A stretch of DNA of 64,000 nt, from IMG/VR virus record IMGVR_UViG_3300009537_000005; one strand, 5' to 3'. Of this stretch, positions 4,366 through 56,130 are shown one piece after another. The notes beneath the pieces are model-generated. The model was not told the DNA's origin. It did no database searches and saw nothing but the letters and a program-made list of their open reading frames with translations. Both the position numbers and the translations under genes were made by a program. The stretch's first letter is position 1. Each line of letters starts with the position of its first letter. This DNA comes from a virus.

Positions 4366-4406
4366 TTGACAAATTTACATTTTGATCCCAAAATATATGT
4401 GCAGGG
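4366..4406 (+). promoter_or_regulatory. sigma70-like promoter of family TTGACAAA-N17-CAAAATATA; drives the tRNA/Y RNA array
   Basis: cTTGACAaatttacattttgaTCCCAAAATATAtg; the same 40-nt architecture recurs at 11665, 38232(-), 51676(-) and 58940(-). Confidence 0.6.
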
Positions 4407-4478
4407 GCTAAAACCCCGGTTTGCCCGATAAAAAATTGCCCGGCTACCTAAATGGATGAACGCAGGGCGGGGCAACTC

Positions 4479-4550
4479 GCAGGGCTGATCTAACTGGAAT
4501 GAGCATTGTCTCCAAAACAATGAATCCTCGTTCGAATCGAGGGCCCTGTG
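4479..4550 (+). tRNA. tRNA-Trp (anticodon CCA)
   Basis: Acceptor GCAGGGC/GCCCTGT, anticodon arm ATTGT-CTCCAAA-ACAAT, T-arm CCTCG-TTCGAAT-CGAGG; weak D-stem. Confidence 0.6.
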
Positions 4551-4555
4551 CTTAT

Positions 4556-4626
4556 AGGCGTGTCGTCTAATGGCAAGACGCGAAGCTGTTAACTTCGTTA
4601 TCTAGGTTCGAGTCCTAGCGTGCCTG
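4556..4626 (+). tRNA. tRNA-Asn (GTT)
   Basis: Acceptor AGGCGTG/CGTGCCT, anticodon arm CGAAG-CTGTTAA-CTTCG, T-arm CTAGG-TTCGAGT-CCTAG. Confidence 0.7.
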
Positions 4627-4632
4627 CCTAAT

Positions 4633-4755
4633 GTGAGCCGAAGGGTCGTGGGTTATCATATCAGAAACGTAAAAGTCGCCTCTCGGGGTGAACATACGAA
4701 GGCAGGAGCCGTGATGCCCGGCCATCTCCCATCCCATTCCTTGCTCGCATAACTT
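4633..4755 (+). ncRNA. Y RNA-like ncRNA A (Ro60-binding-type helix; 3' end abuts tRNA-Ala)
   Basis: 5' box GAGCCGAAGGGTCGTGGGTTATCAT pairs with 3' box CCTTGCTC to give GAGC-[C bulge]-GA / UU-GCUC; a pyrimidine tract CCATCTCCCATCCCATTCC precedes the 3' strand; compare human Y RNA 5' GGUCCGAAGGUAGUGAGUUAUC. Confidence 0.65.
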
Positions 4756-4827
4756 GGGGAATTCATATTAACGGGAGTATGCCTCGTTTGCACCGAGGTC
4801 GTGTGGGTTCGAGTCCCTCATTCTCCA
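4756..4827 (+). tRNA. tRNA-Ala (TGC)
   Basis: Acceptor GGGGAAT/ATTCTCC, anticodon arm CCTCG-TTTGCAC-CGAGG, T-loop TTCGAGT; atypical D-arm. Confidence 0.55.
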
Positions 4828-4947
4828 CCTAGCCCGAGTGACGACGGTCACGAGCATATGCCGGGCAAGGTATTCGTCTCTAGCCGCAAATCGAGACGCC
4901 GCTGCGGAAACTGACCTGCCCCGTAGACGCGGTTTGTTAAGGTCCAC

Positions 4948-5019
4948 GCCCCTCTGGTGAAATGGATATCACTCGTGGCTTCGAACCACGCGTTGCGCGT
5001 TCAAGTCGTGCGGGGGGTG
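4948..5019 (+). tRNA. tRNA-Arg (TCG)
   Basis: Acceptor GCCCCTC/GGGGGGT (G-U pairs), D GTGA-loop-TCAC, anticodon arm CGTGG-CTTCGAA-CCACG, T-loop TTCAAGT. Confidence 0.65.
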
Positions 5020-5087
5020 CCTAATCGGGTCGGGGACATAGCGTTACCTGGCTAAAGTCCGCTGTGTCACAAACTTATCCGAAACAT

Positions 5088-5159
5088 GCCGATATAGCTC
5101 AGATGTAGAGCAGTCGCCTTGTAAGCGACAGTGCGTGGACTCGAGAACCACTATCGGCC
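5088..5159 (+). tRNA. tRNA-Thr (TGT) with a non-canonical T-loop
   Basis: Acceptor GCCGATA/TATCGGC, D GCTC-AGATGTA-GAGC, anticodon arm GTCGC-CTTGTAA-GCGAC; T-loop reads CTCGAGA instead of TTCRAAT. Confidence 0.55.
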
Positions 5160-5162
5160 CCA

Positions 5163-5234
5163 GCGGGCTTGGTGTTAGCAGTAGCACGACGGCCTTCCAA
5201 GCCGCAAGGACGAGTGCGAATCTCGTAGCCCGCT
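5163..5234 (+). tRNA. tRNA-Gly (TCC)
   Basis: Perfect acceptor GCGGGCT/AGCCCGC, anticodon loop CTTCCAA, T-arm ACGAG-TGCGAAT-CTCGT. Confidence 0.7.
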
Positions 5235-5363
5235 CTTAAGCAGAATTAGTTTATCTTAGTAAAACGGAGCCTTGCCAAGGCTCAGTGCGGGGAGCATGGC
5301 CCCGATTCTGCTCCTAAGATACTGTCTGAACAGGAGGTTCGAACCCTCCCAGCAGTATCTCAG

Positions 5364-5434
5364 TGCCTCTTAGTCTAGCGGCAGGACTGCGGTCTTTGGA
5401 ACCGTAAGGCGTGGTTCGAATCCACGAGAGGCAT
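5364..5434 (+). tRNA. tRNA-Gln (TTG)
   Basis: U1-A72 acceptor TGCCTCT/AGAGGCA (bacterial Gln-like), anticodon arm GCGGT-CTTTGGA-ACCGT, T-arm CGTGG-TTCGAAT-CCACG. Confidence 0.75.
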
Positions 5435-5437
5435 CCT

Positions 5438-5566
5438 ATGGTTTGGAACAGTCCTTTTGGTACGATTTATATCTCGCCCGACGTATATTTCGTTCTACTC
5501 GTCGTATGGTTATCTTTGCTTGTATATGGTGGAATGTACATCATGGGAGTGTTCGAAGATAAATAA
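5438..5566 (+). CDS. hypothetical 42-aa hydrophobic peptide (MVWNSPFGTIYISPDVYFVLLVVWLSLLVYGGMYIMGVFEDK) between tRNAs
   Basis: Uninterrupted ATG..TAA frame filling the gap between the two tRNA-Gln genes; predicted single TM helix; below the ORF-track size cutoff. Confidence 0.25.
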   Translation: MVWNSPFGTIYISPDVYFVLLVVWLSLLVYGGMYIMGVFEDK

Positions 5567-5639
5567 TCAGGGACGGTGTAATAGGTTGCACGTCCGGCTC
5601 TGAACCGGAAGATTGCAGGTTCGATCCCTGCTCCCTGAT
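5567..5639 (+). tRNA. tRNA-Gln (CTG)
   Basis: U1-A72 acceptor TCAGGGA/TCCCTGA, anticodon arm TCCGG-CTCTGAA-CCGGA, T-arm GCAGG-TTCGATC-CCTGC. Confidence 0.75.
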
Positions 5640-5718
5640 CCTAGAGACACACAACGGACAAGGCTAGAGGCCGCCGAAGGCGGGTGGGTAGCGAGTGGTT
5701 GACCAGTGTCTCTAACAA

Positions 5719-5791
5719 GCCGCTGTAAGATAAAGGACAGTCGCCAATGCTTCTAACATTGGGAGTGGTGGTTCGAATCCATCCAGCGGTG
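5719..5791 (+). tRNA. tRNA-Arg (TCT)
   Basis: Acceptor GCCGCTG/CAGCGGT, anticodon arm CAATG-CTTCTAA-CATTG, T-arm GGTGG-TTCGAAT-CCATC. Confidence 0.65.
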
Positions 5792-5793
5792 CC

Positions 5794-6025
5794 TATATCG
5801 GGGATTGGGAAAGTCTAGCTAATCCGCTCGCCTTGGACGCGAGAGATCGCTGGGGCAGAGCCAGCATCCCCGACCTAGCCCCCACCGGTACCAGTGAGGG
5901 GTGAGCCTAGTTTCGAGGCCAACTATTCTGTGGCTCAACACAATGTTGGTCCCTGCCTTGAGCAAGTAGGCTAGGCAAATGAAACCCGCCCGGCTGTAGC
6001 GTATGCGAAATTCGCCGGGCAATAC
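5794..6025 (+). ncRNA. unassigned structured spacer in the tRNA array (candidate ncRNA)
   Basis: 232 nt with no tRNA fold; nested inverted repeats (GGGGAT..ATCCCC; GCCCGGC-19nt-GCCGGGC); the overlapping minus-strand ORF 5819..6037 has no support. Confidence 0.25.
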
Positions 6026-6107
6026 GGAAGCGCCCAAAGGAGCGGTACGCGGTCTTGAAAACCGTGAGATGTGAAAGCATGTGGGAGTTCGAGTCTCTCC
6101 GCTTCCG
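6026..6107 (+). tRNA. tRNA-Ser (TGA), class II
   Basis: Acceptor GGAAGCG/CGCTTCC, anticodon arm GCGGT-CTTGAAA-ACCGT, long variable arm (about 18 nt), T-arm GGGAG-TTCGAGT-CTCTC. Confidence 0.75.
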
Positions 6108-6256
6108 CCTAAAGGGTCTATCTGCCCCGGCCCCTAGCTATGGGCACATAGCATAAGAGGTCGCATTCTAGAGGGGCTTGGATTGATCCTAGCCCGCTTC
6201 AAGAGATTGCACCATGTCAGAAAGGACAGAGAGCAAACCATTGGCGGGCTAAACGT

Positions 6257-6328
6257 GGGGATTGTAGTTTATGGAGTAAAACCCTGTCTGTGGAACAGGC
6301 GTAAAGGGTGCGAATCCCTTCAATCCTC
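6257..6328 (+). tRNA. tRNA-His (GTG) with encoded G-1
   Basis: Extra 5' G pairs with C73; acceptor GGGATTG/CAATCCT, anticodon arm CCTGT-CTGTGGA-ACAGG, T-arm AAGGG-TGCGAAT-CCCTT. Confidence 0.75.
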
Positions 6329-6334
6329 CCTCAT

Positions 6335-6406
6335 GTGCTTGTAGCTGAGACAGTCTAGCACTCGGTTGAAGCCCGAGAGACACTGGTGCAATTCCAGTCG
6401 AGCACA
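6335..6406 (+). tRNA. tRNA-Phe (GAA)
   Basis: Acceptor GTGCTTG/CGAGCAC, anticodon arm CTCGG-TTGAAGC-CCGAG, T-arm ACTGG-TGCAATT-CCAGT. Confidence 0.75.
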
Positions 6407-6411
6407 CCTAA

Positions 6412-6484
6412 GTCTCTGATGCGAATGGCAAGCGGACCACCTGCAAAGTGGTTACTAACGTGGGTTCGAATCCCACCAGAGACT
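6412..6484 (+). tRNA. tRNA-Cys (GCA)
   Basis: Acceptor GTCTCTG/CAGAGAC, anticodon arm ACCAC-CTGCAAA-GTGGT, T-arm GTGGG-TTCGAAT-CCCAC; 7-nt variable loop. Confidence 0.65.
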
Positions 6485-6505
6485 CCTTAAAACAAACGAA
6501 GAATT

Positions 6506-6577
6506 GGGTTTGTGGCGAAGTGGCATCGCACCAGCCTCTTAAGCTGTGAGTCGGTAGTTCGAATCTACCCAAGCCCA
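6506..6577 (+). tRNA. tRNA-Lys (CTT)
   Basis: Acceptor GGGTTTG/CAAGCCC, D GCGA-AGTGGCAT-CGC, anticodon loop CTCTTAA, T-arm GGTAG-TTCGAAT-CTACC. Confidence 0.7.
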
Positions 6578-6582
6578 CCTAT

Positions 6583-6663
6583 GCAGTTGTGGTGGAACGG
6601 CATACACGCTGGCCTCAAACCCCAGTGGGGAAACCCGTGCAGGTTCGACTCCTGTCAACTGCA
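6583..6663 (+). tRNA. tRNA-Leu (CAA), class II
   Basis: Acceptor GCAGTTG/CAACTGC, D GTGG-AACGGCAT-ACAC, anticodon loop CTCAAAC, 13-nt variable arm, T-arm GCAGG-TTCGACT-CCTGT. Confidence 0.65.
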
Positions 6664-6667
6664 CTAT

Positions 6668-6741
6668 GCAAGCGTGAAGGGAATGGCATACCTCGGTCAT
6701 TTAAAATGACTGGCTTGGTGGTTCGAGTCCACCCGCTTGTA
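6668..6741 (+). tRNA. tRNA with anticodon TAA (Leu codons UUR) but a short class-I variable loop
   Basis: Acceptor GCAAGCG/CGCTTGT, anticodon arm GGTCA-TTTAAAA-TGACT, 5-nt variable loop, T-arm GGTGG-TTCGAGT-CCACC. Confidence 0.55.
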
Positions 6742-6746
6742 CCTAT

Positions 6747-6821
6747 GCCCTCGTAGGAGAATTGGCATATCCGCACGGTTTAGGCCCGTGGTCAATAGTG
6801 GTTCGAATCCACTCGGGGGTA
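6747..6821 (+). tRNA. tRNA with anticodon TAG (Leu codons CUN) but a short class-I variable loop
   Basis: Acceptor GCCCTCG/CGGGGGT, anticodon arm CACGG-TTTAGGC-CCGTG, 6-nt variable loop, T-arm AGTGG-TTCGAAT-CCACT. Confidence 0.55.
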
Positions 6822-6890
6822 CCTTGTGTAAAGTAGTTTAGATTTTTCTTAACTCAAATCCATTTGAGTATAGTTTTCTTTACTCAACGC

Positions 6891-6965
6891 GCGCCGGTAG
6901 CTCCAATCGGTTAGAGCAGGAGTCTTTTAAACTCAAGGCTGGGGGTTCGAATCCCTCGCGGCGCA
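6891..6965 (+). tRNA. tRNA-Lys (TTT)
   Basis: D GCTC-loop-GAGC, anticodon loop CTTTTAA, T-arm GGGGG-TTCGAAT-CCCTC, acceptor GCGCCGG/GCGGCGC (7-66 mismatch). Confidence 0.65.
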
Positions 6966-6970
6966 CTCCT

Positions 6971-7044
6971 GCCATCATAGTCTAGTGGAAGGACGCAAGC
7001 CTTTCAAGCTTGAGGGCGGGGGTCAGTACCCCGTGATGGTACCA
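6971..7044 (+). tRNA. tRNA-Glu (TTC), CCA encoded
   Basis: Glu-like D-arm GTCTAGTGGAAGGAC, anticodon arm CAAGC-CTTTCAA-GCTTG, T-loop GTCAGTA (non-canonical), 3' TGATGGT-A-CCA. Confidence 0.65.
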
Positions 7045-7045
7045 T

Positions 7046-7117
7046 GCTCTTGTAGTCTAGTGGACAGGACGCTACCCTCTCAAGGTAGAAGCCGGGGTTC
7101 AACTCCCCGTGAGAGCA
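7046..7117 (+). tRNA. tRNA-Glu (CTC)
   Basis: GTCTAGTGGACAGGAC D-arm, anticodon arm TACCC-TCTCAAG? read as CTCTCAA loop (CTC), T-arm CGGGG-TTCAACT-CCCCG, acceptor GCTCTTG/TGAGAGC. Confidence 0.6.
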
Positions 7118-7359
7118 CCTAGGCACGGACCAACGCGGCGAAAGCCGAGGAAGCTCGGGACTACATAGGGCAACTCAGTACAGCCACAGAGACGAGTAAA
7201 GTGAAACGGGCCACGGCTGAGAGTTAGCAATCCCAAGTCGTGCGACAGTGACCCGCTGAGAAGCACAGGTAGGGAGCAGTCACTCGTAAAGAGGGACCGT
7301 CACTTAGTGGCGAGACAGATGTTGGTCGATAACAGAATCCCGGCTATAGTGCCTAACAC
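7118..7359 (+). ncRNA. unassigned 242-nt purine-rich structured spacer (candidate ncRNA)
   Basis: No tRNA fold and no ORF; GAAA-containing motifs (GCGGCGAAAGCCGAGG, GAGTAAAGTGAAACGGGCC); flanked by tRNA-Glu and tRNA-Ser. Confidence 0.2.
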
Positions 7360-7443
7360 GGATGGTTGGCAGAGAGGCTAATTGCACTCGGTTGCTAACC
7401 GAGCGGGGTAACACCCACATAGGTTCGAATCCTATACCATCCG
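7360..7443 (+). tRNA. tRNA-Ser (GCT), class II
   Basis: Perfect acceptor GGATGGT/ACCATCC, anticodon arm ACTCGG-TTGCTAA-CCGAG, long variable arm, T-arm ATAGG-TTCGAAT-CCTAT. Confidence 0.75.
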
Positions 7444-7463
7444 CCTGCGTTATCAAAAAGGCT

Positions 7464-7496
7464 AAAATTTCAAAATAACTTCTCTTTTTGGAGATA
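7464..7496 (+). promoter_or_regulatory. conserved upstream element (copy 2)
   Basis: AAAATTTCAAAATAACTTCTCTTTTTGGAGATA. Confidence 0.4.
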
Positions 7497-7498
7497 TA

Positions 7499-7726
7499 AT
7501 GTATGAAGTAAATATGTTTTATCCGGGCAAAGTCAGAAGTAATCTAGAAAAAGAATTTGACGATAAGATATACGGCCGTTGGGCATCCGGCTATAGCTTT
7601 GAAGATAATATCAGAGACATAGCGTTTAGCATTGAAACTCTAGACCTGGTACGAGATTTGATGGCCTACTTACCCTGTGACGGCTGGATTACGGTACGAC
7701 TGAGAGACGGAGTGGTAGAAGCATAA
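7499..7726 (+). CDS. hypothetical small protein embedded in the tRNA array
   Basis: ORF track; preceded by the conserved AAAATTTCAAAATA...CTTTTTGGAGA element plus SD. Confidence 0.35.
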   Translation: MYEVNMFYPGKVRSNLEKEFDDKIYGRWASGYSFEDNIRDIAFSIETLDLVRDLMAYLPCDGWITVRLRDGVVEA

Positions 7727-7736
7727 ATTACTACCC

Positions 7737-7770
7737 TAAAATTTCAAAATAGTCTCGCTTTTTCGGAGAG
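7737..7770 (+). promoter_or_regulatory. conserved upstream element (copy 3)
   Basis: AAAATTTCAAAATAGTCTCGCTTTTTCGGAGAG. Confidence 0.4.
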
Positions 7771-7776
7771 ATTTCC

Positions 7777-7980
7777 ATGCACAAGCAGAATAATCGTTGG
7801 ACTTGGAAAGAGTTTGGTAAGCGGATCAGCCCACACGCTGGATGGTTTAGTAGATGGAGACGTGGTGACGGGAGACTATGGAAAAAGAAGTTAAGTAAGG
7901 CGCGGAGACGAGCGTGGAAAGACCCACACCAACGGGGATTACTAAGTGTCGAGCGGGAATGTAATTGGAAGACATGGTAA
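7777..7980 (+). CDS. hypothetical basic (R/K/W-rich) small protein
   Basis: ORF track; preceded by a second copy of the same conserved upstream element. Confidence 0.35.
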   Translation: MHKQNNRWTWKEFGKRISPHAGWFSRWRRGDGRLWKKKLSKARRRAWKDPHQRGLLSVERECNWKTW

Positions 7981-8195
7981 TGCGTGGATTAGCATACAGA
8001 CGATATCAAATGGATCGTATCAAGAAGAAACGGGCCCACTACTGGGGTGGACACGCTGGTAGTGATCCAAGACTGTTGGGAATAGTTGCTAAAACACCAC
8101 ACCCTTGTAGTGGCTGGTGTTGTGGCAATCCACGGAAGCATTTTGGCGAGAAGACTCGTCAAGAAATAACATGGACGGCTGGCGATCTCGGTTGA
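7965..8195 (+). CDS. hypothetical small protein; 3' end would overlap tRNA-Ile
   Basis: ORF track; overlaps the 5' part of the tRNA called at 8173, so the true extent is uncertain. Confidence 0.2.
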   Translation: MEDMVMRGLAYRRYQMDRIKKKRAHYWGGHAGSDPRLLGIVAKTPHPCSGWCCGNPRKHFGEKTRQEITWTAGDLG

Positions 8196-8247
8196 ACGCG
8201 CTACTCTGATAAGGTAGTATAGGCAGGTTCGAATCCTGCGCCGTCTA
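8173..8247 (+). tRNA. tRNA-Ile (GAT)
   Basis: Acceptor GGACGGC/GCCGTCT, anticodon arm CTACT-CTGATAA-GGTAG, T-arm GCAGG-TTCGAAT-CCTGC. Confidence 0.65.
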
Positions 8248-8252
8248 CTTCT

Positions 8253-8326
8253 GGACTGGAAGCCAATTGGATTGAGGCATCACTCTTATAAGGTGAGTAT
8301 AGCTGGTTCGACTCCAGCCCGGTCTA
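8253..8326 (+). tRNA. tRNA with anticodon TAT (would read the AUA Ile codon)
   Basis: Acceptor GGACTGG/CCGGTCT, anticodon arm TCACT-CTTATAA-GGTGA, T-arm GCTGG-TTCGACT-CCAGC. Confidence 0.55.
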
Positions 8327-8331
8327 CCTAC

Positions 8332-8405
8332 GGCTTGGTAGCTCAATTGGATAGAGCGCCACACTGTCGATGTGGTGGTTGCGGGTTCAAGTCCCGTCCG
8401 AGTCG
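8332..8405 (+). tRNA. tRNA-Asp (GTC)
   Basis: D GCTC-AATTGGAT-AGAGC, anticodon arm CCACA-CTGTCGA-TGTGG, T-arm GCGGG-TTCAAGT-CCCGT. Confidence 0.7.
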
Positions 8406-8411
8406 CCTTTA

Positions 8412-8492
8412 TAGGGCCGAAGAGTAAGTGGGTTATCATACAGTTGACGTATACCTTCGGGTACTCCCACCCTCACAACTTGCCCTATACAT
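8412..8492 (+). ncRNA. Y RNA-like ncRNA B (short form; compensatory variant of the Ro60-binding helix)
   Basis: 5' box GGGCCGAAGAGTAAGTGGGTTATCAT pairs with 3' box CTCACAACTTGCCC to give GGGC-[C]-GA / UU-GCCC. The A-to-G change on the 5' strand is matched by T-to-C on the 3' strand relative to copies A, C and D. Internal GTACC-TTCG-GGTAC tetraloop hairpin; 3' end abuts tRNA-Val. Confidence 0.65.
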
Positions 8493-8566
8493 GCAGGCTT
8501 AGCTCAGTTGGATAGAGCACTTCTTTTACACAGAAGGTGTCGGGAGTTCGAGTCTCTCAGCCTGTA
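8493..8566 (+). tRNA. tRNA-Val (TAC)
   Basis: Acceptor GCAGGCT/AGCCTGT, D GCTC-AGTTGGAT-AGAGC, anticodon arm CTTCT-TTTACAC-AGAAG, T-arm GGGAG-TTCGAGT-CTCTC. Confidence 0.75.
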
Positions 8567-8573
8567 CCTATAT

Positions 8574-8741
8574 GTGAGCCGACGGTAACAGGGTTCTCGT
8601 CCTTATCAGGAGGAATTCTGAATGCGGGTAACCTGCTATAGTGGTTAAAGTGATGACTAGATCGGGCCCTTATGCTGGTCCGACAACGAAAACATTGCGG
8701 GTCTTGGACCTTCCCCTGGCCACAACTTGCTCACACAACAT
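8574..8741 (+). ncRNA. Y RNA-like ncRNA C (long form, about 168 nt)
   Basis: 5' box GAGCCGACGGTAACAGGGTTCTCGTCCTTATC and 3' box CCTTCCCCTGGCCACAACTTGCTCACACAACAT pair as GAGC-[C]-GA / UU-GCUC; 3' end abuts tRNA-Met. Confidence 0.55.
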
Positions 8742-8815
8742 GCCGAATAGGCCAATTGGATAGGCACCCGTCTCATTAACGGGGTTGTGTGGTTCGATTC
8801 CACAATTCGGTACCA
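8742..8815 (+). tRNA. tRNA-Met or Ile2 (CAT), CCA encoded
   Basis: Acceptor GCCGAAT/ATTCGGT-A-CCA, anticodon arm CCCGT-CTCATTA-ACGGG, T-arm TGTGG-TTCGATT-CCACA; no initiator signature. Confidence 0.7.
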
Positions 8816-8886
8816 CGCGGGGTTGAGGAGCGGCTCCTCCGTAGGCTCATAACCTACTCACGTCGGTTCGAATCCGACCCCCGCTA
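8816..8886 (+). tRNA. second CAT-anticodon tRNA (Met/fMet/Ile2 undetermined); starts directly after the CCA of the previous tRNA
   Basis: D GAGG-AGCGGCT-CCTC, anticodon arm GTAGG-CTCATAA-CCTAC (initiator-like loop sequence), T-arm GTCGG-TTCGAAT-CCGAC, acceptor CGCGGGG/CCCCGCT with a 1-72 mismatch. Confidence 0.5.
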
Positions 8887-8892
8887 CTTAGT

Positions 8893-9044
8893 ACGAGCCG
8901 ACGAGTAAGTGGGTTATCTTCTATCAAAAGAGAGGTCGTGAGTTCGAATCTCACCCCGTCTACCATAGACGGGTAGCTCAGTGGCAGAGCGCTGGCGAAA
9001 GCCTTCCCACTCTCATAACTTGCTCGTACAACATAACTCACAAT
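8893..9044 (+). ncRNA. Y RNA-like ncRNA D with a permuted tRNA-like domain (YrlA-type)
   Basis: 5' box GAGCCGACGAGTAAGTGGGTTATCTT; internal T-arm GTGAG-TTCGAAT-CTCAC; then CCCGTCT-ACCAT-AGACGGG (acceptor stem closed as a hairpin over a CCA-containing loop); then TA-GCTC-AGTGGCA-GAGC D-arm; then 3' box CCTTCCCACTCTCATAACTTGCTCGTACAACAT; followed by tRNA-Tyr. Confidence 0.7.
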
Positions 9045-9125
9045 GGCGGTGCGCCCGTGTGGGAACGGGGTCGGTCTGTAGAACCGATGGCATGCGCATA
9101 GGAAGTTCGATTCTTCACGCCGCCA
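9045..9125 (+). tRNA. tRNA-Tyr (GTA), class II
   Basis: Acceptor GGCGGTG/CGCCGCC, D CCCG-TGTGGGAA-CGGG, anticodon arm TCGGT-CTGTAGA-ACCGA, 12-nt variable arm, T-loop TTCGATT. Confidence 0.7.
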
Positions 9126-9182
9126 CCTAGACCAATTCGGGTCTATTATCCGAGTGGTTTTCTCCTCGGAAAGGAGGATTCA

Positions 9183-10826
9183 GTGACTTACACAAGGCAC
9201 TATAACGTACGAAAGACGCCACAGAACCAACCAATTCCGGGTAAGAACATGGTCGCCAACAGCGCTGGCGGTTTTGCGTTCGCCGTTGACGACTGGGCAC
9301 GTCTAAGACGTTTCTTAATTCTTGGCGCAGAAGGTGGTACATACTACATTGGCGAGAAGGAGCTAACAATCGGGAATGCCGAGGCTGTACTGCGTTGCAT
9401 CAAGGAAGATGGTATTGGTGTTGTTGACACGATTGTTGATGTCAGTAAGGGTGGTAGAGCACCAAAGAACGACCCTGCTCTATTTGCTTTAGCTATGTGT
9501 GCCGGATTAGGAAACGAAAACACGAAGCGCCATGCTCTTAACGCACTGCCAGAAGTAGCACGAATTGGTACTCACCTATTCACTTTCGCAGAGTACGTAC
9601 AAGCGTTTCGTGGCTGGGGACGGTCACTGCGCCGAGCCGTTGGTGAGTGGTACACAACCAAGGAACCAAAGCAACTAGCATACCAGCTAGTGAAGTATCA
9701 ACAGCGGAACGGTTGGTCACACCGTGACTTACTGCGACTATCTCACCCTAAGTCAGATGAGCACAACGTTCTGTTCAATTGGGTGACACAAGGACCGGGC
9801 GAAGGTACACACTTTGATTTGCCGGTAAATGAAGCCACTAGGTTAATTTACGCTTTCGAGAGGGCCAAGACAGCGGACGAAGCAGAGACTATTGAGTTGA
9901 TTATAGACTACGGTCTAACTCGTGAAATGATCCAGACAAAGCACCTAAACAGTGCGGATGTTTGGTTCGCTTTGCTACAGAACATGCCTATGACAGCTAT
10001 GATCCGGAACCTAGGCAAGATGACTCAGGTTGGGCTACTAGGTGACGGCCGATGGGACTCTAACAAGATTGTGCAGGACCGACTGCGAGACTCAGTGCGG
10101 TTGGCCAAGGCAAGAATTCACCCGCTGAATGTTTTAGTAGCTCTGAGAACCTACGATAGCGGTGGCGGATACCGAGGTAAGTTAGTCTGGAATCCGTCGC
10201 GAGACATTGTGAGCGCACTGAATGACGCTTTCTACCTGGCGTTCGATGGAGTATACCCAACAGGCAGGCGGTTTGTGTTGGGCGTGGACGTGAGCAGTAG
10301 CATGAGTGCTACGATAGGCAACACAGTGTTGTCTGCGGCAGAAGCCGCTGTGGCAATGGCGATGGTAATTCGACGAACGGAAGACCAAGCTATAATCCGA
10401 GGATTCGCTGGTGGCGAACGCCGGTATAGCGATCCCTTACAAGGTCCGAACTACGATGGTTTCATGGACTTAGGCATCAGTAGAGAGACACGACTAGAGT
10501 CAGCAATGGAACGGACACGAAACAAGAACTTCGGTCGGACAGACTGTGCTCTGCCTATGTTGTGGGCACTAAAGAACGAGGTCGAAGCTGACGTATTTTG
10601 TATTTTCACTGACTCAGAAACATGGGTAGGAAAAATTCACCCAGTACAGGCGCTACAACAGTACCGAGAAAAGATGAACATCCCGGCTAAGTTGATTGTT
10701 GTGGCGATGACAAGTAATGGCTTCAGCATCGCTGACCCAAACGATGGGGGCATGCTAGACGTGGTGGGATTTGATACATCAATTCCGCAAGTGATGGCGG
10801 ACTTCATTGGGATATCAGGCCCCTAA
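9183..10826 (+). CDS. rsr: Ro60/Rsr orthologue (TROVE domain plus C-terminal vWA domain with a MIDAS motif)
   Basis: N-terminal WARLRRFLILGAEGGTYYIGEKELTIGNAEAVLRCIKEDG...PALFALAMCAG matches Ro60 (human ...[39 protein letters not shown]...PMLFALA); C-terminal VLGVDVSSSMSA is a DxSxS MIDAS motif; GTG start after GGAAAGGAGG. Confidence 0.9.
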   Translation: MTYTRHYNVRKTPQNQPIPGKNMVANSAGGFAFAVDDWARLRRFLILGAEGGTYYIGEKELTIGNAEAVLRCIKEDGIGVVDTIVDVSKGGRAPKNDPALFALAMCAGLGNENTKRHALNALPEVARIGTHLFTFAEYVQAFRGWGRSLRRAVGEWYTTKEPKQLAYQLVKYQQRNGWSHRDLLRLSHPKSDEHNVLFNWVTQGPGEGTHFDLPVNEATRLIYAFERAKTADEAETIELIIDYGLTREMIQTKHLNSADVWFALLQNMPMTAMIRNLGKMTQVGLLGDGRWDSNKIVQDRLRDSVRLAKARIHPLNVLVALRTYDSGGGYRGKLVWNPSRDIVSALNDAFYLAFDGVYPTGRRFVLGVDVSSSMSATIGNTVLSAAEAAVAMAMVIRRTEDQAIIRGFAGGERRYSDPLQGPNYDGFMDLGISRETRLESAMERTRNKNFGRTDCALPMLWALKNEVEADVFCIFTDSETWVGKIHPVQALQQYREKMNIPAKLIVVAMTSNGFSIADPNDGGMLDVVGFDTSIPQVMADFIGISGP

Positions 10827-11697: not shown

Positions 11698-12600
11698 GTG
11701 ACGGACATGACCGACTTATACGACAAGATAACGGAGATTCTACCAAACTTTGACGAAGTGGGCAGGGGATACATACATACTTACTGTGTATTTCACGACG
11801 ACCGCCAAAAGTCGTTACTGATTTATCCCGACGCTCGCGGCTACACTCCCGGCTTTGTGTGCTTATCGGGCGAATGTAATCGTAGAGGTAGCCTACAAGA
11901 ATTGCTACGAGTTTTAGAGGGTGCACCCCCGCGACCTCGTCACAACTCGGAAAAGGAGAAACCCCCTTATCTTCCGACCGATCTGCATGATCTGATTAAT
12001 TTGACCAATGTGGCACATCGGGATATTCAAGACTCTGAACATCCAGAACGACGACATTATCTGAAACAGAGGGGCGTAGAGGACATGATTGTCCCTGCTC
12101 GTTTAGGATGGTACAAAGGATGGATTTTAACACCCATATATGCTCAGTCTCTAAAGAAACTGGTCGGTGTCTATGCGAGAGCTACTCCGGCGGAGTTCGG
12201 CCGGACTGGCCAGAGATTTCACCAACCCCTAGGCCAGAGGCCGATGTTGTACGTGCCGAACTGGGACATTTGCCTATCGTCCTCCCATGTGGTTGTCGTA
12301 TTTGGTATGATGGACGCTCTAACCTTGTCGCTTATGTTACAACCAGTTGTGACCACCACCGGGGGAAGCAACAGCTTCGACCCGGCATGGCTGTCACAAT
12401 TTCGTTTGCCGATAACGATCATACCGGACGCTAGCGGAGACAGTAAGGCGGCGATAAACTTAGCGGCACAGCTTGGGTGGAGAAGCAAAATACTAAGACT
12501 TCCATACGACGAACAAGTACAAGACCCGGCAGATTTTGCAGAATATGGCCGGTTGAACGAGTTGAAAGGGGTTCTAGATGAAATTGGTGCATTGTCCTGA
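11698..12600 (+). CDS. DNA primase (DnaG-like: CHC2 zinc finger plus TOPRIM)
   Basis: CVFHDDRQKS...C...C zinc-binding N-terminus; IIPDASGDSKAAINLA Toprim acidic motif; the start may be ATG 11707. Confidence 0.6.
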   Translation: MTDMTDLYDKITEILPNFDEVGRGYIHTYCVFHDDRQKSLLIYPDARGYTPGFVCLSGECNRRGSLQELLRVLEGAPPRPRHNSEKEKPPYLPTDLHDLINLTNVAHRDIQDSEHPERRHYLKQRGVEDMIVPARLGWYKGWILTPIYAQSLKKLVGVYARATPAEFGRTGQRFHQPLGQRPMLYVPNWDICLSSSHVVVVFGMMDALTLSLMLQPVVTTTGGSNSFDPAWLSQFRLPITIIPDASGDSKAAINLAAQLGWRSKILRLPYDEQVQDPADFAEYGRLNELKGVLDEIGALS

Positions 12601-53161: not shown

Positions 53162-53913
53162 TAGAATGCCGTCACTGGGGCAATGGGCCCGAACTTTCTC
53201 GATGGTAGTCTACGACGAAGTGATAGAAAGATTCCATTCTTGTAAAATATCGACCAGTCCTCGTTTTCGTGGATGATCTTATTCACGCCGTGAAATACAT
53301 CTGGATAGCCTTCTTCGTAGTTGTCGAAACCGATATAATCTGATGTCCGCTTGCTTACATTCTCGAAGTCTTTATACGGCATATCTCGCATATGATCGCC
53401 ATCAATGTAAGCAGTAACAAAATTATTTTCTTCCAATTCTTCCGGCCATGGATCGGAGTACTTCTGAATTAAATTTAACTTCACGTCAAACAGCTTGGCG
53501 TTCTTTCTCAACTCCTCTGGGGTAGCGACAAGCAGACTTTGATCTTCTTTTGGTTGACCGGTAGTGGGGTCTATAATTCTAATGTCCTCCTCCCTTTTTT
53601 CAGCGTCGTACGGATCAATACAATATACTTCTCCTTCTAATCCCAACTTTCGTTTTACAAGAGCCACGGCGATGGCGCTTGCTCCAAACAAAGTCCCAAT
53701 CTCTACGTGGTCTCCGTCGCCGGCGTTGGCAACCATGCTCATCAGGAAAACCAAACTCGCTCCGCCATCGGCAATTCTGCCTGTAAATTCCTTATCTTTC
53801 ATGCTCTGATTAAGTTCTTGCATAACTTTAAATACTTCTGGGTAAATCCTCATTACTTGGCCTCCGGTAATTTCGCCGCGCCTTGGGCGACAGCAATTTC
53901 TGCCAATTCCCAC
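53161..53913 (-). CDS. class I SAM-dependent methyltransferase (TylF/MycF-like O-methyltransferase)
   Basis: GDGDHVEIGTLFGASA Rossmann SAM-binding segment and YIDGDH metal/substrate motif. Confidence 0.45.
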   Translation of the reverse strand: MGIGRNCCRPRRGEITGGQVMRIYPEVFKVMQELNQSMKDKEFTGRIADGGASLVFLMSMVANAGDGDHVEIGTLFGASAIAVALVKRKLGLEGEVYCIDPYDAEKREEDIRIIDPTTGQPKEDQSLLVATPEELRKNAKLFDVKLNLIQKYSDPWPEELEENNFVTAYIDGDHMRDMPYKDFENVSKRTSDYIGFDNYEEGYPDVFHGVNKIIHENEDWSIFYKNGIFLSLRRRLPSRKFGPIAPVTAF

Positions 53914-55984: not shown

Positions 55985-56130
55985 AATTTATTCCCCTTTC
56001 CATTCAAAGGTTGTAACATATAGAATTCCTACGAAGCATTTGAATATAGAAAATCCAAATGATCGTGCATCTTTCCACTCTGTCGGTTCATTCCACGTAA
56101 AAGCAATTGGTAAAGTGGGAAACGGTTGAA

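What the first reader, a model, noticed from the sequence alone, without database searches (positions are those of the whole stretch)
4479..9125. Dense 28-gene tRNA array with several non-canonical members
Manual folding gives tRNAs for Trp, Asn, Ala, Arg x2, Thr, Gly, Gln x2, Ser x2, His (G-1 encoded), Phe, Cys, Lys x2, Leu, Glu x2, Ile, Asp, Val, Met, Tyr. It also gives oddities. Two tRNAs have Leu-type anticodons TAA (6668-6741) and TAG (6747-6821) but short 5-6 nt variable loops; bacterial tRNA-Leu is always class II. One tRNA has anticodon TAT (8253-8326), for AUA, which bacteria normally decode with lysidine-CAU. tRNA-Thr has a CTCGAGA T-loop. tRNA-Glu(TTC) has a GTCAGTA T-loop. The TAA and TAG tRNAs may be identity-switched decoders, or tRNAs that evade host anticodon nucleases.
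Basis: seen in the sequence. Interest (0 to 1): 0.6.

Follow-up and report, generated by a model that had tools for sequence, protein, structure and literature searches.

The report
Phage tRNA operon hiding RNase P
This is a bacteriophage's own set of 30 transfer-RNA genes, whose odd members (leucine tRNAs without the usual long arm) are real and belong to a widespread phage family, and which also hides a miniature RNase P ribozyme gene and four Y RNA genes that nobody appears to have described in phages in this arrangement.

Summary
Window 4479-9125 is a phage RNA operon, running from a promoter-like site at 4366 to a terminator-like hairpin at 9135. It has 30 tRNA genes, not 28; Pro, a second Gly and a second Met were missed. 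All 20 amino acids are covered.

Leu(TAA) and Leu(TAG) do have 5-6 nt variable loops. They are not identity-switched. CTA and TTA codons sit at invariant Leu positions of Ro60. Both tRNAs keep A73 and a Leu-type D arm. They belong to phage families in which 18 of 18 and about 10 of 14 members with the same D arm have Leu anticodons and short loops. These also occur in cultured Streptomyces, Acinetobacter, Aeromonas and Pseudomonas phages, annotated simply as tRNA-Leu.

Ile(TAT) is conserved in relatives and matches 25% ATA usage.

About 1.4 kb of the "array" is not tRNA:
- A 240-nt reduced type-A RNase P RNA lies at 7120-7359 (RF00010, E 1e-14). Homologues occur in at least 23 viral or metagenomic contigs, almost always in tRNA arrays, with 33 of 46 base pairs covarying.
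- Four Y RNAs lie directly upstream of a Ro60 gene.

I found no paper describing phage RNase P RNA.

The parts
4366..4394 (+). sigma-70-like promoter TTGACA-17-CAAAAT, 85 nt upstream of the first tRNA
   Evidence: 10 of 12 matches; consensus match only
4479..4550 (+). tRNA-Trp(CCA), G73, followed by CTTA
   Evidence: ARAGORN only
4556..4626 (+). tRNA-Asn(GTT)
   Evidence: 59 bits
4631..4753 (+). Y RNA 1: closing stem with GCCGAAG motif (GNCGAAN0-1G) and GUGGGUUAUC. The loop region is 86% identical to L031:8752-8808.
4756..4827 (+). tRNA-Ala(TGC), G3:U70 present
4948..5019 (+). tRNA-Arg(TCG)
5088..5159 (+). tRNA-Thr(TGT), T loop CTCGAGA, D loop without GG; missed by ARAGORN
   Evidence: (53.1 bits)
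5163..5234 (+). tRNA-Gly(TCC), T loop TGCGAAT (G55), D loop AG instead of GG; missed by default ARAGORN
   Evidence: (49.5 bits)
5240..5312 (+). tRNA-Gly(GCC), T loop AGCATGG, D loop without GG
   Evidence: (40.5 bits)
5317..5360 (+). tRNA-like minihelix (acceptor-like stem plus T arm GGAGG-TTCGAAC-CCTCC), probably a tRNA remnant
   Evidence: z -4.5; absent from L031
5364..5434 (+). tRNA-Gln(TTG)
5567..5639 (+). tRNA-Gln(CTG)
5642..5718 (+). conserved structured spacer RNA directly 5' of tRNA-Arg(TCT); function unknown
   Evidence: 97% identity over 37 nt with L031; z -3.75
5719..5791 (+). tRNA-Arg(TCT)
5799..5873 (+). tRNA-Pro(TGG), C1:G72 and A73, T loop GGCAGAG, D loop without GG; missed by ARAGORN and by wide Rfam scans
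   Evidence: (41.6 bits in a narrow search)
6026..6107 (+). tRNA-Ser(TGA), long variable arm, degenerate D arm
   Evidence: (tRNA-Sec model, 31.7 bits)
6186..6256 (+). conserved three-helix spacer RNA directly 5' of tRNA-His; function unknown
   Evidence: 88% over 67 nt with L031, compensatory UUGC/GCAA to CUGU/ACAG; z -3.9
6257..6328 (+). tRNA-His(GTG) with encoded G-1 (6257) opposite C73; T loop TGCGAAT
6335..6406 (+). tRNA-Phe(GAA), T loop TGCAATT (same in L031), D loop without GG
6412..6484 (+). tRNA-Cys(GCA), U73
   Evidence: 42.4 bits
6506..6577 (+). tRNA-Lys(CTT)
6583..6663 (+). tRNA-Leu(CAA), normal class II (13-nt variable arm), A73
6668..6741 (+). tRNA-Leu(TAA), short type: connector UGA, D arm AGG-GAAUGGCAUA-CCU, 6-bp anticodon stem (C26:G44), 4-nt variable loop, A73. 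It belongs to a phage family of short-loop tRNA-Leu.
   Evidence: (40.4 bits)
6747..6821 (+). tRNA-Leu(TAG), short type: D arm GGA-GAAUUGGCAUA-UCC, 6-nt variable loop, A73. It belongs to a second phage D-arm family that has both short and long-arm versions.
   Evidence: (47.2 bits)
6891..6965 (+). tRNA-Lys(TTT)
6971..7041 (+). tRNA-Glu(TTC), T loop GTCAGTA, followed by CCA
   Evidence: (53 bits)
7046..7117 (+). tRNA-Glu(CTC)
   Evidence: 63.3 bits
7120..7359 (+). reduced bacterial type-A RNase P RNA, 240 nt. Helices and motifs: P1 7120-7126/7349-7355; P2 7128-7134/7321-7327; P3 7136-7147; P4 7148-7160/7332-7346 with a bulged U; P5; P6 pseudoknot (GGG 7168-7170 / CCC 7252-7254); P15-P17 7231-7275 with L15 GGU 7268-7270; P18-like hairpin 7279-7297; specificity-domain remnant 7179-7216. 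It fills exactly the gap between tRNA-Glu(CTC) and tRNA-Ser(GCT).
   Evidence: (RF00010, 49.4 bits, E 1.3e-14, model positions 1-367)
7360..7443 (+). tRNA-Ser(GCT), class II; immediately 3' of the RNase P RNA, as in L031, L034 and L035
7499..8170 (+). three small ORFs inside the operon (75, 67 and about 63 aa; the last two very basic). They have no Pfam match and are not conserved in L031.
8173..8247 (+). tRNA-Ile(GAT)
8253..8326 (+). tRNA-Ile(TAT), A73; conserved in L031, L034, L035 and L047
   Evidence: (49.7 bits)
8332..8405 (+). tRNA-Asp(GTC)
   Evidence: 64.8 bits
8409..8491 (+). Y RNA 2 (short): GGGCCGAAGAGUAAGUGGGUUAUC ... CCCACCCUCACAACUUGCCC
8493..8566 (+). tRNA-Val(TAC)
8571..8738 (+). 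Y RNA 3 (long loop); orthologue at L031:9096-9228
8742..8812 (+). tRNA-Met(CAT), elongator-like, followed by CCA
   Evidence: 41.6 bits
8816..8886 (+). tRNA-Met(CAT) with a C1xU72 mismatch (initiator-like)
   Evidence: (43.9 bits)
8890..9031 (+). Y RNA 4, YrlA type: Ro-binding stem plus a tRNA-like module (T arm; 8-bp acceptor-like stem closed by a CCA loop; D arm)
   Evidence: RF02553, 43.4 bits, E 2.3e-7; z -4.05
9045..9125 (+). tRNA-Tyr(GTA), class II
9135..9163 (+). terminator-like hairpin followed by a T run, between tRNA-Tyr and the Ro60 gene
9183..10826 (+). Ro60/Rsr gene (TROVE and vWA_Ro60 domains), the protein partner of the Y RNAs
   Evidence: (3.6e-64 and 1.8e-49)

Best explanation
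Region 4366-9163 is one phage transcription unit that makes stable RNAs.

(1) It supplies 30 tRNAs for all 20 amino acids. The set is rich in U34 anticodons that read the A-ending codons the phage prefers.

(2) The non-canonical members are working variants, not decoys. Leu(UAA) and Leu(UAG) are tRNA-Leu that have lost the long variable arm. I infer that the host LeuRS still charges them with leucine, because bacterial LeuRS reads A73 and the D/T-loop core, not the anticodon or the arm. Ile(UAU) reads AUA. The odd T loops keep the tRNA elbow through matched changes; G55 goes with A in place of G18.

(3) The operon carries part of its own RNA-handling machinery. One component is a miniature type-A RNase P RNA. 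I infer that it cuts the 5' leaders of the tightly packed precursors, probably together with the host RnpA protein. Its L15 GGU would pair with the CC that nearly every tRNA gene here encodes after N73. The other component is four Y RNAs which, with the Ro60 gene next door, form Ro-Y RNA particles for structured-RNA quality control. The Y RNAs and the RNase P RNA are released from the transcript by the same tRNA-processing cuts that flank them.

Shown: the genes, their folds, their conservation and covariation, the codon match, and the Leu meaning of CTA and TTA.

Inferred: charging by LeuRS, catalytic activity of the mini RNase P RNA, use of host RnpA, and Ro binding.
For: tRNA genes:
- The 30 genes are supported.
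- The unit is bounded by a promoter-like and a terminator-like site.

Codon use (16,788 codons):
- CTA is the commonest Leu codon (23%) and TTA is 17%.
- ATA is 25% of Ile codons. AGA and CGA are the top Arg codons.

Meaning of CTA and TTA:
- These codons align to Leu columns of Ro60 (86% and 74%).

Short tRNA-Leu:
- A D-arm-only search finds 18 tRNAs in 15 IMG/VR contigs. All have Leu anticodons (TAA 7, TAG 5, GAG 4, CAA 2), a 5-nt loop and A73.
- On 14 distinct sequences, 99.7% of cells are paired and 16 of 21 pairs show double changes. This includes a Watson-Crick 26:44 pair. No shuffle out of 500 reached the observed value.
- In the second D-arm type, short and long-arm versions share an identical D arm.
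- The sister phage L031 has class II Leu(TAA) and Leu(TAG).
- Cultured Streptomyces, Acinetobacter, Aeromonas and Pseudomonas phages carry the short form.
- PMC2377443 reports that A73, U8-A14, G18-U55 and G19-C56 are critical for a bacterial LeuRS, and that deleting the variable arm mainly lowers affinity.

RNase P RNA:
- RF00010 hits the window at E 1.3e-14 and L047 at E 5e-13. Both hits span the whole model.
- Across 7 homologues, 99.3% of cells are paired and 33 of 46 pairs show double changes. These include P4 with its bulged U and the P6 pseudoknot. Sliding the partners gives 27-45% pairing.
- GGU in L15 and GUAGCAA in J5/15 are kept in all 7.
- 16 of 18 further IMG/VR loci have matching P4 strands. 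16 of 18 carry tRNAs, mostly as arrays.
- After N73, 21 of 30 tRNA genes have CCT and 3 have CCA.

Y RNAs and Ro60:
- Supported, and by PMC4201824.
Against: - There is no expression, aminoacylation or cleavage data.
- The RNase P hit is far below Rfam's gathering score (49 against 100 bits), because most of the specificity domain is missing.
- I picked the helices used for the covariation count by hand, which favours pairing.
- No RnpA gene was found in the window, so activity would depend on a host protein or on RNA alone.
- Seven tRNAs have T loops that lack T54-Psi55-C56, and some of them may be poorly functional.
- The window's tRNAs look more degenerate than those of L031.
[quoted passage not shown] Loss of the arm may therefore cost charging efficiency in some hosts.
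- The host is unknown.
Confidence: 0.7

Rival explanations
1. The short Leu-anticodon tRNAs are identity-switched. Another synthetase charges them, so that CTN and TTR codons are recoded or read ambiguously during infection.
For: A short variable loop is the hallmark of class I tRNAs. Rfam's general tRNA model accepts both as ordinary class I cloverleaves.
Against: - CTA and TTA codons occupy invariant Leu positions in Ro60. CTA is the phage's commonest Leu codon, so recoding would damage every protein.
- The tRNA body is found only with Leu anticodons, from both Leu codon boxes: 18 of 18, and about 12 of 14 in the second family.
- The D loop is the Leu-specific GAAUUGGCAUA and A73 is present.
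- The tRNAs lack G3:U70, G-1 and a long arm. From established knowledge, that leaves LeuRS as the only anticodon-independent synthetase they could fit.
Confidence: 0.04
2. Loss of the variable arm, and the altered T and D loops, is selected because it lets phage tRNAs escape a host tRNA-targeting defence nuclease or toxin, while still being charged with Leu. This would be a driver, and is compatible with the main explanation.
For: - The short form has arisen or spread repeatedly, in phages of Actinobacteria, Proteobacteria and uncultured hosts.
- Phage tRNAs that evade anticodon nucleases are an established concept (my own knowledge).
- Many elbow variants occur in these arrays.
Against: - No defence system that recognises the tRNA-Leu variable arm is known to me.
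- The anticodon loops are ordinary.
- The sister phage L031 manages with class II forms.
- Nothing in the window bears on this idea.
Confidence: 0.2
3. The odd tRNAs are decaying pseudogenes in a redundant array. This would cover the short Leu genes and the G55, C54 and G54 T-loop variants, Pro, and Ser(TGA) with its weak D arm.
For: - The window's copies score lower than the L031 orthologues. L031 Pro scores 60 bits and Thr 60.6, against 41.6 and 53.1 here.
- ARAGORN misses four of them.
- A clear tRNA remnant lies at 5317-5360.
Against: - All stems are intact, at 7/5/5 bp.
- Each odd tRNA is the only gene for its anticodon, and Pro is the only gene for its amino acid.
- The short Leu family shows strong compensatory evolution.
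- G55 goes with loss of G18 in 5 of 7 ARAGORN-detected cases, against 0 of about 139 for U55 tRNAs. That pattern indicates selection on the tertiary pair.
- The Phe T loop TGCAATT is identical in L031.
Confidence: 0.1
4. The RNase P-like RNA is not a working ribozyme. It would be a captured and eroding host rnpB fragment, or a decoy that binds the host RnpA protein or pre-tRNAs.
For: - It falls below the Rfam threshold, and most of the specificity domain is gone.
- Sizes range from about 150 to 420 nt, which could reflect erosion.
- No phage RnpA was found.
Against: - Exactly the catalytic-domain elements are kept and covary. These are P1-P6, P15-P17, the bulged U of P4, the AGGAA and ACAGAA motifs, and L15 GGU.
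- The element is found in at least 23 contigs with deep divergence.
- It was not found in 185,579 representative bacterial genomes with the same motif.
- From my own knowledge, catalytic domains alone are active with protein, as are Pyrobaculum type T RNAs.
Confidence: 0.2

Closest known systems
tRNA gene clusters of large lytic phages (T4, T5, mycobacteriophage cluster C, Streptomyces cluster BE)
   Same: They are dense same-strand arrays with 3-7 nt spacers. The tRNA set is biased to codons the phage uses more than its host, including Ile(UAU), Arg(UCU) and Leu(UAA). Streptomyces phage Mildred21 even has the same short tRNA-Leu(tag), 76 nt.
   Different: - Here there is a complete 20-amino-acid set in a phage of only about 69 kb.
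- Most genes encode CC-U instead of CCA or nothing.
- The array is interleaved with an RNase P RNA and four Y RNAs.
- Neither the array nor the terminase matches any cultured phage.
Bacterial class II tRNA-Leu
   Same: It shares the Leu anticodons, A73, U8, a 3-bp D stem, D loop GAAUUGGCAxA with G18G19, and a canonical T loop.
   Different: The variable region is 4-6 nt instead of 13 or more. In the Leu(UAA) family the connector between the acceptor and D stems has 3 nt, and position 26 forms a Watson-Crick pair with position 44, giving a 6-bp anticodon stem.
Animal mitochondrial tRNA-Leu (class I type)
   Same: It is a leucine tRNA without a long variable arm (my own knowledge).
   Different: It is unrelated in sequence and works with a mitochondrial LeuRS. 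The phage tRNAs keep a full bacterial D/T elbow and must use a bacterial LeuRS.
Bacterial type-A RNase P RNA (Rfam RF00010); reduced natural forms such as the Mycoplasma fermentans RNA (about 276 nt) and Pyrobaculum type T (about 200 nt)
   Same: It has P1-P6 and P15-P17, P4 with a bulged U, the CR-I, CR-IV and CR-V motifs, and the L15 GGU that pairs with the tRNA CCA end. Like type T, it has lost most of the specificity domain.
   Different: - It is encoded by phages, inside tRNA arrays.
- It measures 240 nt here, and 150-420 nt in relatives.
- It scores below Rfam's gathering threshold.
- Its 3' P4 strand reads ACAGAAU instead of ACAGAAC.
- No paper on such phage genes was found.
Ro60 (Rsr) with YrlA/Y RNAs in bacteria and mycobacteriophages (Chen et al. 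2014, PMC4201824)
   Same: The Ro60 gene has Y RNAs on the same strand just upstream. The GNCGAAN0-1G motif is present. One Y RNA has a tRNA-like module whose acceptor-like stem ends in CCA, like M. smegmatis YrlA, which RNase P cleaves.
   Different: There are four Y RNAs, each slotted between tRNA genes of an array, so that tRNA processing would release them. Both strands of the metazoan-like Ro-binding helix are kept. Only one copy reaches even a sub-threshold YrlA score.

Membership tests
tRNA (Rfam RF00005) | Cloverleaf scoring at or above the 29-bit gathering score | tested here: met
   - Leu(TAA) 40.4 bits
- Leu(TAG) 47.2 bits and Ile(TAT) 49.7 bits
- Pro 41.6 bits
- Thr 53.1 bits and Glu(TTC) 53 bits
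- Trp was found by ARAGORN only.
- Ser(TGA) was found only by the Sec model at 31.7 bits, and by ARAGORN at a low threshold.
Bacterial tRNA-Leu (class II) | Long variable arm (more than 10 nt, a stem-loop) | tested here: not met
   The variable region is 5 nt (TAA) and 6 nt (TAG), against 13 nt in Leu(CAA) of the same array.
Bacterial tRNA-Leu (class II) | Discriminator A73 | tested here: met
   A73 is present in both, and in 18 of 18 family members.
Bacterial tRNA-Leu (class II) | Leu-type D arm (3-bp stem, 10-11 nt loop with G18G19), U8-A14, canonical T loop | tested here: met
   The D arm is AGG/GGA - GAAU(U)GGCAUA - CCU/UCC and the T loop is TTCGAGT/TTCGAAT. The identical D arm occurs with long arms in L114 and L118.
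Bacterial tRNA-Leu (class II) | Aminoacylation with leucine by LeuRS | not testable with these tools
   The evidence is indirect only. CTA and TTA codons mean Leu, and only Leu anticodons occur on this body.
Bacterial RNase P RNA type A (RF00010) | Rfam gathering score of 100 bits | tested here: not met
   The score is 49.4 bits, E 1.3e-14, as a global match to model positions 1-367 with large deletions. L047 scores 44.4 bits.
Bacterial RNase P RNA type A (RF00010) | Catalytic core: P4 helix with a bulged U, flanked by AGGAA(A)G and ACAGAA (CR-I and CR-V) | tested here: met
   The core is present in all 7 aligned homologues. P4 has 8 bp, 3 of them with compensatory changes. It also holds in 16 of 18 further loci.
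Bacterial RNase P RNA type A (RF00010) | P15/L15 internal loop with GGU (binds C74, C75 and N73 of the substrate) and the P6 pseudoknot | tested here: met
   GGU is present in 7 of 7. P15 shows double changes in 4 of 4 pairs, P16/P17 in 6 of 6 and P6 in 4 of 5.
Bacterial RNase P RNA type A (RF00010) | Specificity domain (P7-P14, CR-II and CR-III) that reads the T/D-loop elbow | tested here: not met
   Model deletions of 30 and 81 nt are replaced by 0 and 13 nt. About 59 nt remain between the P5 strands in the window, including a CCACAGAGA...GUGAAACGG remnant. In L047 a single hairpin remains.
Bacterial RNase P RNA type A (RF00010) | Endonucleolytic 5' maturation of pre-tRNA | not testable with these tools
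   There is no assay. The context (inside tRNA arrays) is consistent with this activity.
Y RNA / YrlA (RF02553; Chen 2014) | GNCGAAN0-1G motif near the 5' end, in a stem formed with the 3' end | tested here: met
   Y1 and Y2 have GCCGAAG. Y3 and Y4 have GCCGACG, one deviation. The terminal stems are predicted. The motif definition comes from PMC4201824.
Y RNA / YrlA (RF02553; Chen 2014) | tRNA-like module (T arm, D arm, acceptor-like stem); Rfam gathering score of 69 bits | tested here: inconclusive
   Only Y4 has the module. It scores 43.4 bits, E 2.3e-7, below the gathering score, and its fold shows T, acceptor-like and D hairpins. Y1-Y3 have other loops.
Y RNA / YrlA (RF02553; Chen 2014) | Encoded within 4 kb of a Ro60 orthologue, on the same strand | tested here: met
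   Y2-Y4 lie 0.15-0.8 kb upstream of Ro60 (9183-10826). Y1 lies 4.4 kb upstream. All are on the same strand.
Ro60 / TROVE protein | TROVE domain plus Ro60 vWA domain | tested here: met
   PF05731 at 1.8e-49 and PF25045 at 3.6e-64. More than 7,999 homologues were found.
tRNA-Ile(UAU) (AUA decoder without lysidine) | Anticodon UAU on an Ile-like body, with ATA codons in use | tested here: met
   The anticodon is TAT. It shares acceptor ends GGAC...GUCU-A with Ile(GAT). It is conserved in L031, L034, L035 and L047. ATA makes up 25% of Ile codons. Charging and the U34 modification could not be tested.

The most novel reading that the evidence does not exclude
Phages carry a previously undescribed family of miniaturised RNase P ribozymes (about 150-420 nt, catalytic domain only) embedded in their tRNA arrays. 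These have co-evolved with non-canonical phage tRNAs: leucine tRNAs without the long arm, elbows with A18:G55, and genes ending CC-U. On this reading the phage brings a semi-autonomous tRNA maturation system, rather than relying wholly on the host's RNase P.
Probability: 0.5. Interest if true: 0.88.

Novelty: new variant of a known kind. Interest (0 to 1): 0.74.

Why it matters
- **tRNA-Leu.** The rule that bacterial-type tRNA-Leu is always class II fails for a widespread set of phage tRNAs. These are already in GenBank as plain "tRNA-Leu", and are sometimes not annotated at all. They offer natural minimal substrates for LeuRS. They also warn that tRNA finders and isotype models under-call phage tRNAs. 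Here ARAGORN missed 4 of 30, and wide Rfam scans missed 3.
- **RNase P.** RNase P RNA has been regarded as a cellular and organellar gene. A phage-borne, naturally minimised type-A catalytic domain, found from 69-kb phages to 480-kb jumbo phages, would be a new class of viral ribozyme gene. It would serve as a natural deletion series for the question of how little RNA is needed for RNase P catalysis. It would also be evidence that phages take over tRNA processing.
- **Y RNAs.** Placing Y RNAs between tRNAs, next to Ro60 and an RNase P RNA, ties three tRNA-related RNA systems into one operon. It makes their interplay testable.

Tried and rejected
- **Cultured-phage searches.** Megablast of the whole array found no match. 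Blastn of the RNase P RNA found none apart from a chance 30-nt hit. tblastn of the terminase found none.
- **Other routes to relatives.** The search for related loci with the neighbouring helicase found none. Relatives came instead from Ro60 homologues.
- **Bacterial genomes.** A scan of genome contigs with the 5' P4 motif gave 15 loci, all chance matches in coding sequence. Of the 38 metagenome hits, 35 were the same kind of chance match.
- **Rfam sensitivity.** A 42-kb Rfam scan did not report the RNase P RNAs of L031 and L034. This turned out to be a filter effect, because narrow scans do find such RNAs.
- **MAFFT alignment.** The MAFFT alignment of the RNase P RNAs (A2) was not accurate enough for counting pairs. 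I built a gap-free core alignment from hand-defined segments instead, and that choice biases the count towards pairing.
- **Phage RNase P protein.** I asked whether the small basic ORFs at 7777-8170 could be a phage RNase P protein. They have no Pfam hit and are not conserved in L031, so I rejected the idea.
- **Other enzymes.** I looked for RnpA, a CCA-adding enzyme or synthetases among about 60 ORFs and found none.
- **tmRNA.** The low-threshold ARAGORN "permuted tmRNA" calls across the array are artefacts of tandem tRNAs.
- **Source sample.** The look-up of the window's own contig failed.

Full report
**Context.** The window is most of a phage genome.
- It encodes a large terminase, a major head protein and an endolysin-like protein.
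- It also encodes a family A DNA polymerase, a RecA-like protein, an AAA_25 helicase, UDG and a PD-(D/E)XK nuclease.
- Its own Ro60 protein is recorded on a 69,284-nt JGI contig.
- Nothing in INPHARED resembles the array or the terminase.
- The host is unknown. The nearest named Ro60 proteins come from Chloroflexota, Brocadia and similar metagenome-assembled genomes.

**Checking the observation.**
- ARAGORN tRNAs between 4479 and 9127, all on the + strand.
- Rfam adds Thr(TGT) 5088-5159 and Gly(TCC) 5163-5234.
- Ser(TGA) 6026-6107 is seen by the tRNA-Sec model and by ARAGORN at a lower threshold.
- A tRNA-Pro(TGG) that I found by eye at 5799-5873 scores 41.6 bits in a narrow Rfam search.
- Leu(TAA), which was missing from the wide Rfam scans, scores 40.4 bits in a narrow search.
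- The array therefore has 30 tRNA genes covering all 20 amino acids. A 31st, Glu(CTC), lies far away at 62596-62668.
- A promoter-like TTGACA-17-CAAAAT lies at 4366-4394. A hairpin followed by a T run lies at 9135-9163. The region therefore reads as one transcription unit.

**The two short leucine tRNAs.** Leu(TAA) has the layout GCAAGCG-UGA-AGG-GAAUGGCAUA-CCU-C-GGUCA-UUUAAAA-UGACU-GGCUU-GGUGG-UUCGAGU-CCACC-CGCUUGU-A. Leu(TAG) has the layout GCCCUCG-UA-GGA-GAAUUGGCAUA-UCC-G-CACGG-UUUAGGC-CCGUG-GUCAAU-AGUGG-UUCGAAU-CCACU-CGGGGGU-A. Both keep A73, a 3-bp D stem and the D loop that the class II Leu(CAA) next to them also has. Four lines of evidence show they are leucine tRNAs that have lost the arm.
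1. The sister phage L031 (Ro60 73% identical, same gene order) has 83-nt class II Leu(TAA) and Leu(TAG).
2. A scan of IMG/VR with only the D-arm sequence of the TAA type returned 18 tRNAs in 15 contigs of 35-455 kb.
   - Every one has a Leu anticodon (TAA 7, TAG 5, GAG 4, CAA 2), a 5-nt variable stretch and A73.
   - On the 14 distinct sequences, 99.7% of cells are paired and 16 of 21 pairs show double changes.
   - Position 26 forms a Watson-Crick pair with the first variable nucleotide in four different pair types, which gives a 6-bp anticodon stem.
3. The D arm of the TAG type occurs with short loops (TAG, TAA, AAG) and also with 13- and 16-nt arms (TAG, CAA) in other viral contigs. This shows that the short forms derive from class II genes.
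4. The same short tRNA occurs in cultured phages.
   - It is annotated tRNA-Leu in Streptomyces phage Mildred21 (76 nt, tag), Acinetobacter phage Konradin (78 nt) and Aeromonas phage Ah1 (78 nt, tag).
   - It is present but unannotated in Pseudomonas phage 16Q.
   - In all, 45-104 records matched.

**Meaning of the codons.**
- CTA is the commonest Leu codon of this phage (23%) and TTA makes up 17%.
- In Ro60, 17 CTA and 8 TTA codons fall in columns that are on average 86% and 74% Leu in 119 homologues. That is no different from CTG (76%) and TTG (70%).
- A tRNA that inserted another residue at these codons would be harmful.
- Bacterial LeuRS does not read the anticodon. In Aquifex, the critical elements are A73 and the core pairs U8-A14, G18-U55 and G19-C56. 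Deleting the variable arm mainly lowers affinity (PMC2377443).
- I therefore conclude that these are Leu acceptors. This is an inference, not a demonstration.

**Other oddities.**
- Ile(TAT) is conserved in L031, L034, L035 and L047. ATA is 25% of Ile codons. From my own knowledge, phage T4 carries an AUA-reading tRNA-Ile, so this feature is ordinary for phages.
- Of 146 ARAGORN tRNAs in six related arrays, 117 have TTC at positions 54-56 and 14 have A54.
- The G55 variants mostly lack GG in the D loop and have AG instead, whereas no U55 tRNA lacks GG. This suggests an A18:G55 pair replacing G18:Psi55, which points to selection rather than decay.
- After N73, 21 of 30 genes read CCT (17 of them CCTA) and only 3 read CCA. 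L031 and L034 show the same pattern, but L006 and most other arrays encode CCA.

**The hidden RNase P RNA.**
- The 242-nt gap between tRNA-Glu(CTC) and tRNA-Ser(GCT) matches Rfam RF00010 end to end (49.4 bits, E 1.3e-14). The alignment has large deletions in the specificity domain.
- The element is conserved at the same place, directly 5' of tRNA-Ser(GCT), in L031, L034 and L035.
- A motif scan found further copies in L038 (viral) and in L044, L047 and L076 (metagenomes). Their identity as homologues was confirmed.
- The L047 copy is only 188 nt and sits inside a 28-tRNA array. Rfam aligns it globally as well, at E 5e-13.
- I defined P1, P2, P3, P4 (with its bulged U), P5, the P6 pseudoknot, a P7-like helix and P15-P17 in each sequence.
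  - 274 of 275 cells pair.
  - On a gap-free core alignment, the counting tool gives 99.3% pairing and 33 of 46 pairs with double changes.
  - No shuffle out of 500 does as well, and sliding the partners gives 27-45% pairing.
  - The helices were hand-picked, which inflates pairing, but the number of compensatory types is large.
- AGGAA, ACAGAA, GUAGCAA and the GGU of L15 are invariant.
- A second scan with the 3' P4 strand found 18 more viral loci, on contigs of 20-482 kb.
  - 16 have a complementary 5' strand 103-571 nt upstream, with the variable base covarying.
  - 16 carry tRNAs, mostly as arrays.
  - Sizes run from about 330 nt (L125, L136, with more of the specificity domain) to about 150 nt (L132, L142).
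- The motif was not found in genuine form in 185,579 representative bacterial and archaeal genomes.
- Five literature searches found no description of phage-encoded RNase P RNA, and a 2024 review of RNase P mentions none. The library is incomplete, so this is absence of evidence.
- No RnpA gene is present in the window.

**Y RNAs and Ro60.**
- The gene immediately after the array encodes Ro60.
- Four spacers are Y RNAs, each with a terminal stem containing GCCGA(A/C)G...GUGGGUUAUC paired to ...CCCAC..CA(C/U)AACUUGC.
- Y4 (8890-9031) hits YrlA (43.4 bits, E 2.3e-7). It folds into the stem plus a T arm, an 8-bp acceptor-like hairpin closed by CCA, and a D arm (z -4.05).
- This matches the description of YrlA near Ro60 in 254 bacteria and 22 phages. 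In that work, M. smegmatis YrlA is cleaved by RNase P and receives CCA (PMC4201824).
- Orthologues occur in L031, L033 and L034.

**How it most likely works.**
- A single transcript is cut into tRNAs by RNase P at the 5' ends and by 3' processing enzymes.
- The same cuts free the RNase P RNA, whose 3' end lies 4 nt before tRNA-Ser +1, and the Y RNAs.
- The tRNAs raise the supply of decoders for the phage's A-ending codons.
- I infer that the mini RNase P RNA adds or secures 5'-processing capacity for about 30 closely spaced precursors, and that it binds their encoded CC through L15.
- Its reduced specificity domain, which normally reads the T/D elbow, may relate to the many elbow variants. That link is speculation.
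- Ro60 with the Y RNAs would provide structured-RNA surveillance.

**Novelty.**
- The tRNA array, the TAT anticodon and the Ro60/Y RNA module are known kinds.
- The short-arm tRNA-Leu family is present in public records, but I found no description of it.
- The phage RNase P RNA family appears to be new.
- Overall I rate this a new variant of known kinds, with a substantial chance that the RNase P component is a genuinely new class of viral gene.

Noticed in passing
window 4551-9128 (positions after each tRNA); also L031 and L034: After the discriminator base, 21 of 30 tRNA genes read CCT (17 of them CCTA), 4 read CTT and only 3 read CCA. The same holds in the sister phages, but not in L006 or most other phage arrays, which encode CCA. 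I suspect the CC is kept for pairing with the GGU of the phage RNase P RNA, with the A added by the host. This is untested.
   Followed up: partly
window 5642-5718 and L031:4793-4892: A structured RNA of about 77 nt lies directly 5' of tRNA-Arg(TCT). It is 97% identical over 37 nt between the two phages, which is more conserved than the tRNAs themselves. Its closing stem is AGAGACAC/GUGUCUCU (z -3.75). It has no Rfam match and its function is unknown.
   Followed up: partly
window 6186-6256 and L031:5171-5240: A three-helix RNA of about 70 nt lies directly 5' of tRNA-His (G-1). It is 88% identical to L031, with compensatory changes (UUGC/GCAA to CUGU/ACAG) and z -3.9. It has no Rfam match and its function is unknown.
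   Followed up: partly
window 5317-5360: A tRNA-like minihelix sits between Gly(GCC) and Gln(TTG). It has an acceptor-like stem plus a T arm with a TTCGAAC loop, and no D or anticodon arm (z -4.5). It is probably a tRNA remnant and is absent from L031.
   Followed up: partly
window tRNAs Gly(TCC), Gly(GCC), Pro, Phe; L031 Pro; L034 Met; L047 Tyr: T loops with G at position 55 go together with D loops that have AG instead of the universal G18G19. No tRNA with U55 lacks GG. This may be a covarying tertiary pair, A18:G55.
   Followed up: partly
L132:~9890-10040, L135, L142:~12225-12375: Micro versions of the phage RNase P RNA exist, about 150 nt long, with only 103 nt between the two P4 strands. 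P1 and P2 covary between contigs. Near full-length versions of about 330 nt occur in L125 and L136. Together these look like a natural size series.
   Followed up: partly
window 7120-7359/7360; L031; L034; L035; L129; L038: The RNase P RNA lies immediately 5' of tRNA-Ser(GCT) in four phages and within about 70 nt of it in L129. In L038 it lies immediately 3' of it. The recurrent linkage is unexplained.
   Followed up: no
window 7777-7980 and 7980-8170: Two small, very basic ORFs (67 and about 63 aa) lie inside the RNA operon, just downstream of the RNase P RNA and tRNA-Ser. They have no Pfam match and no counterpart in L031.
   Followed up: partly
window 62596-62668: A solitary canonical tRNA-Glu(CTC) lies 53 kb from the array (62.9 bits). 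It is also followed by CCTA and duplicates the array's Glu(CTC) anticodon.
   Followed up: no
window 53161-56904 (- strand): A cluster of genes resembles sugar- or nucleotide-modification genes: Methyltransf_24, a cytidylyltransferase-like protein and a short-chain dehydrogenase/epimerase. It could serve DNA or surface-glycan modification.
   Followed up: no
OR001909.1 (Pseudomonas phage 16Q) 21352-21426, and several Acinetobacter and Vibrio phage records: Short-arm tRNA-Leu genes are present but not annotated in a number of GenBank phage records. tRNA annotation pipelines therefore miss some members of this family.
   Followed up: partly
L038:1678-1956 and L131:6294-6675: Related phage tRNA arrays also carry tmRNA genes. 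The window has none; the low-threshold ARAGORN tmRNA calls in the window are artefacts.
   Followed up: no
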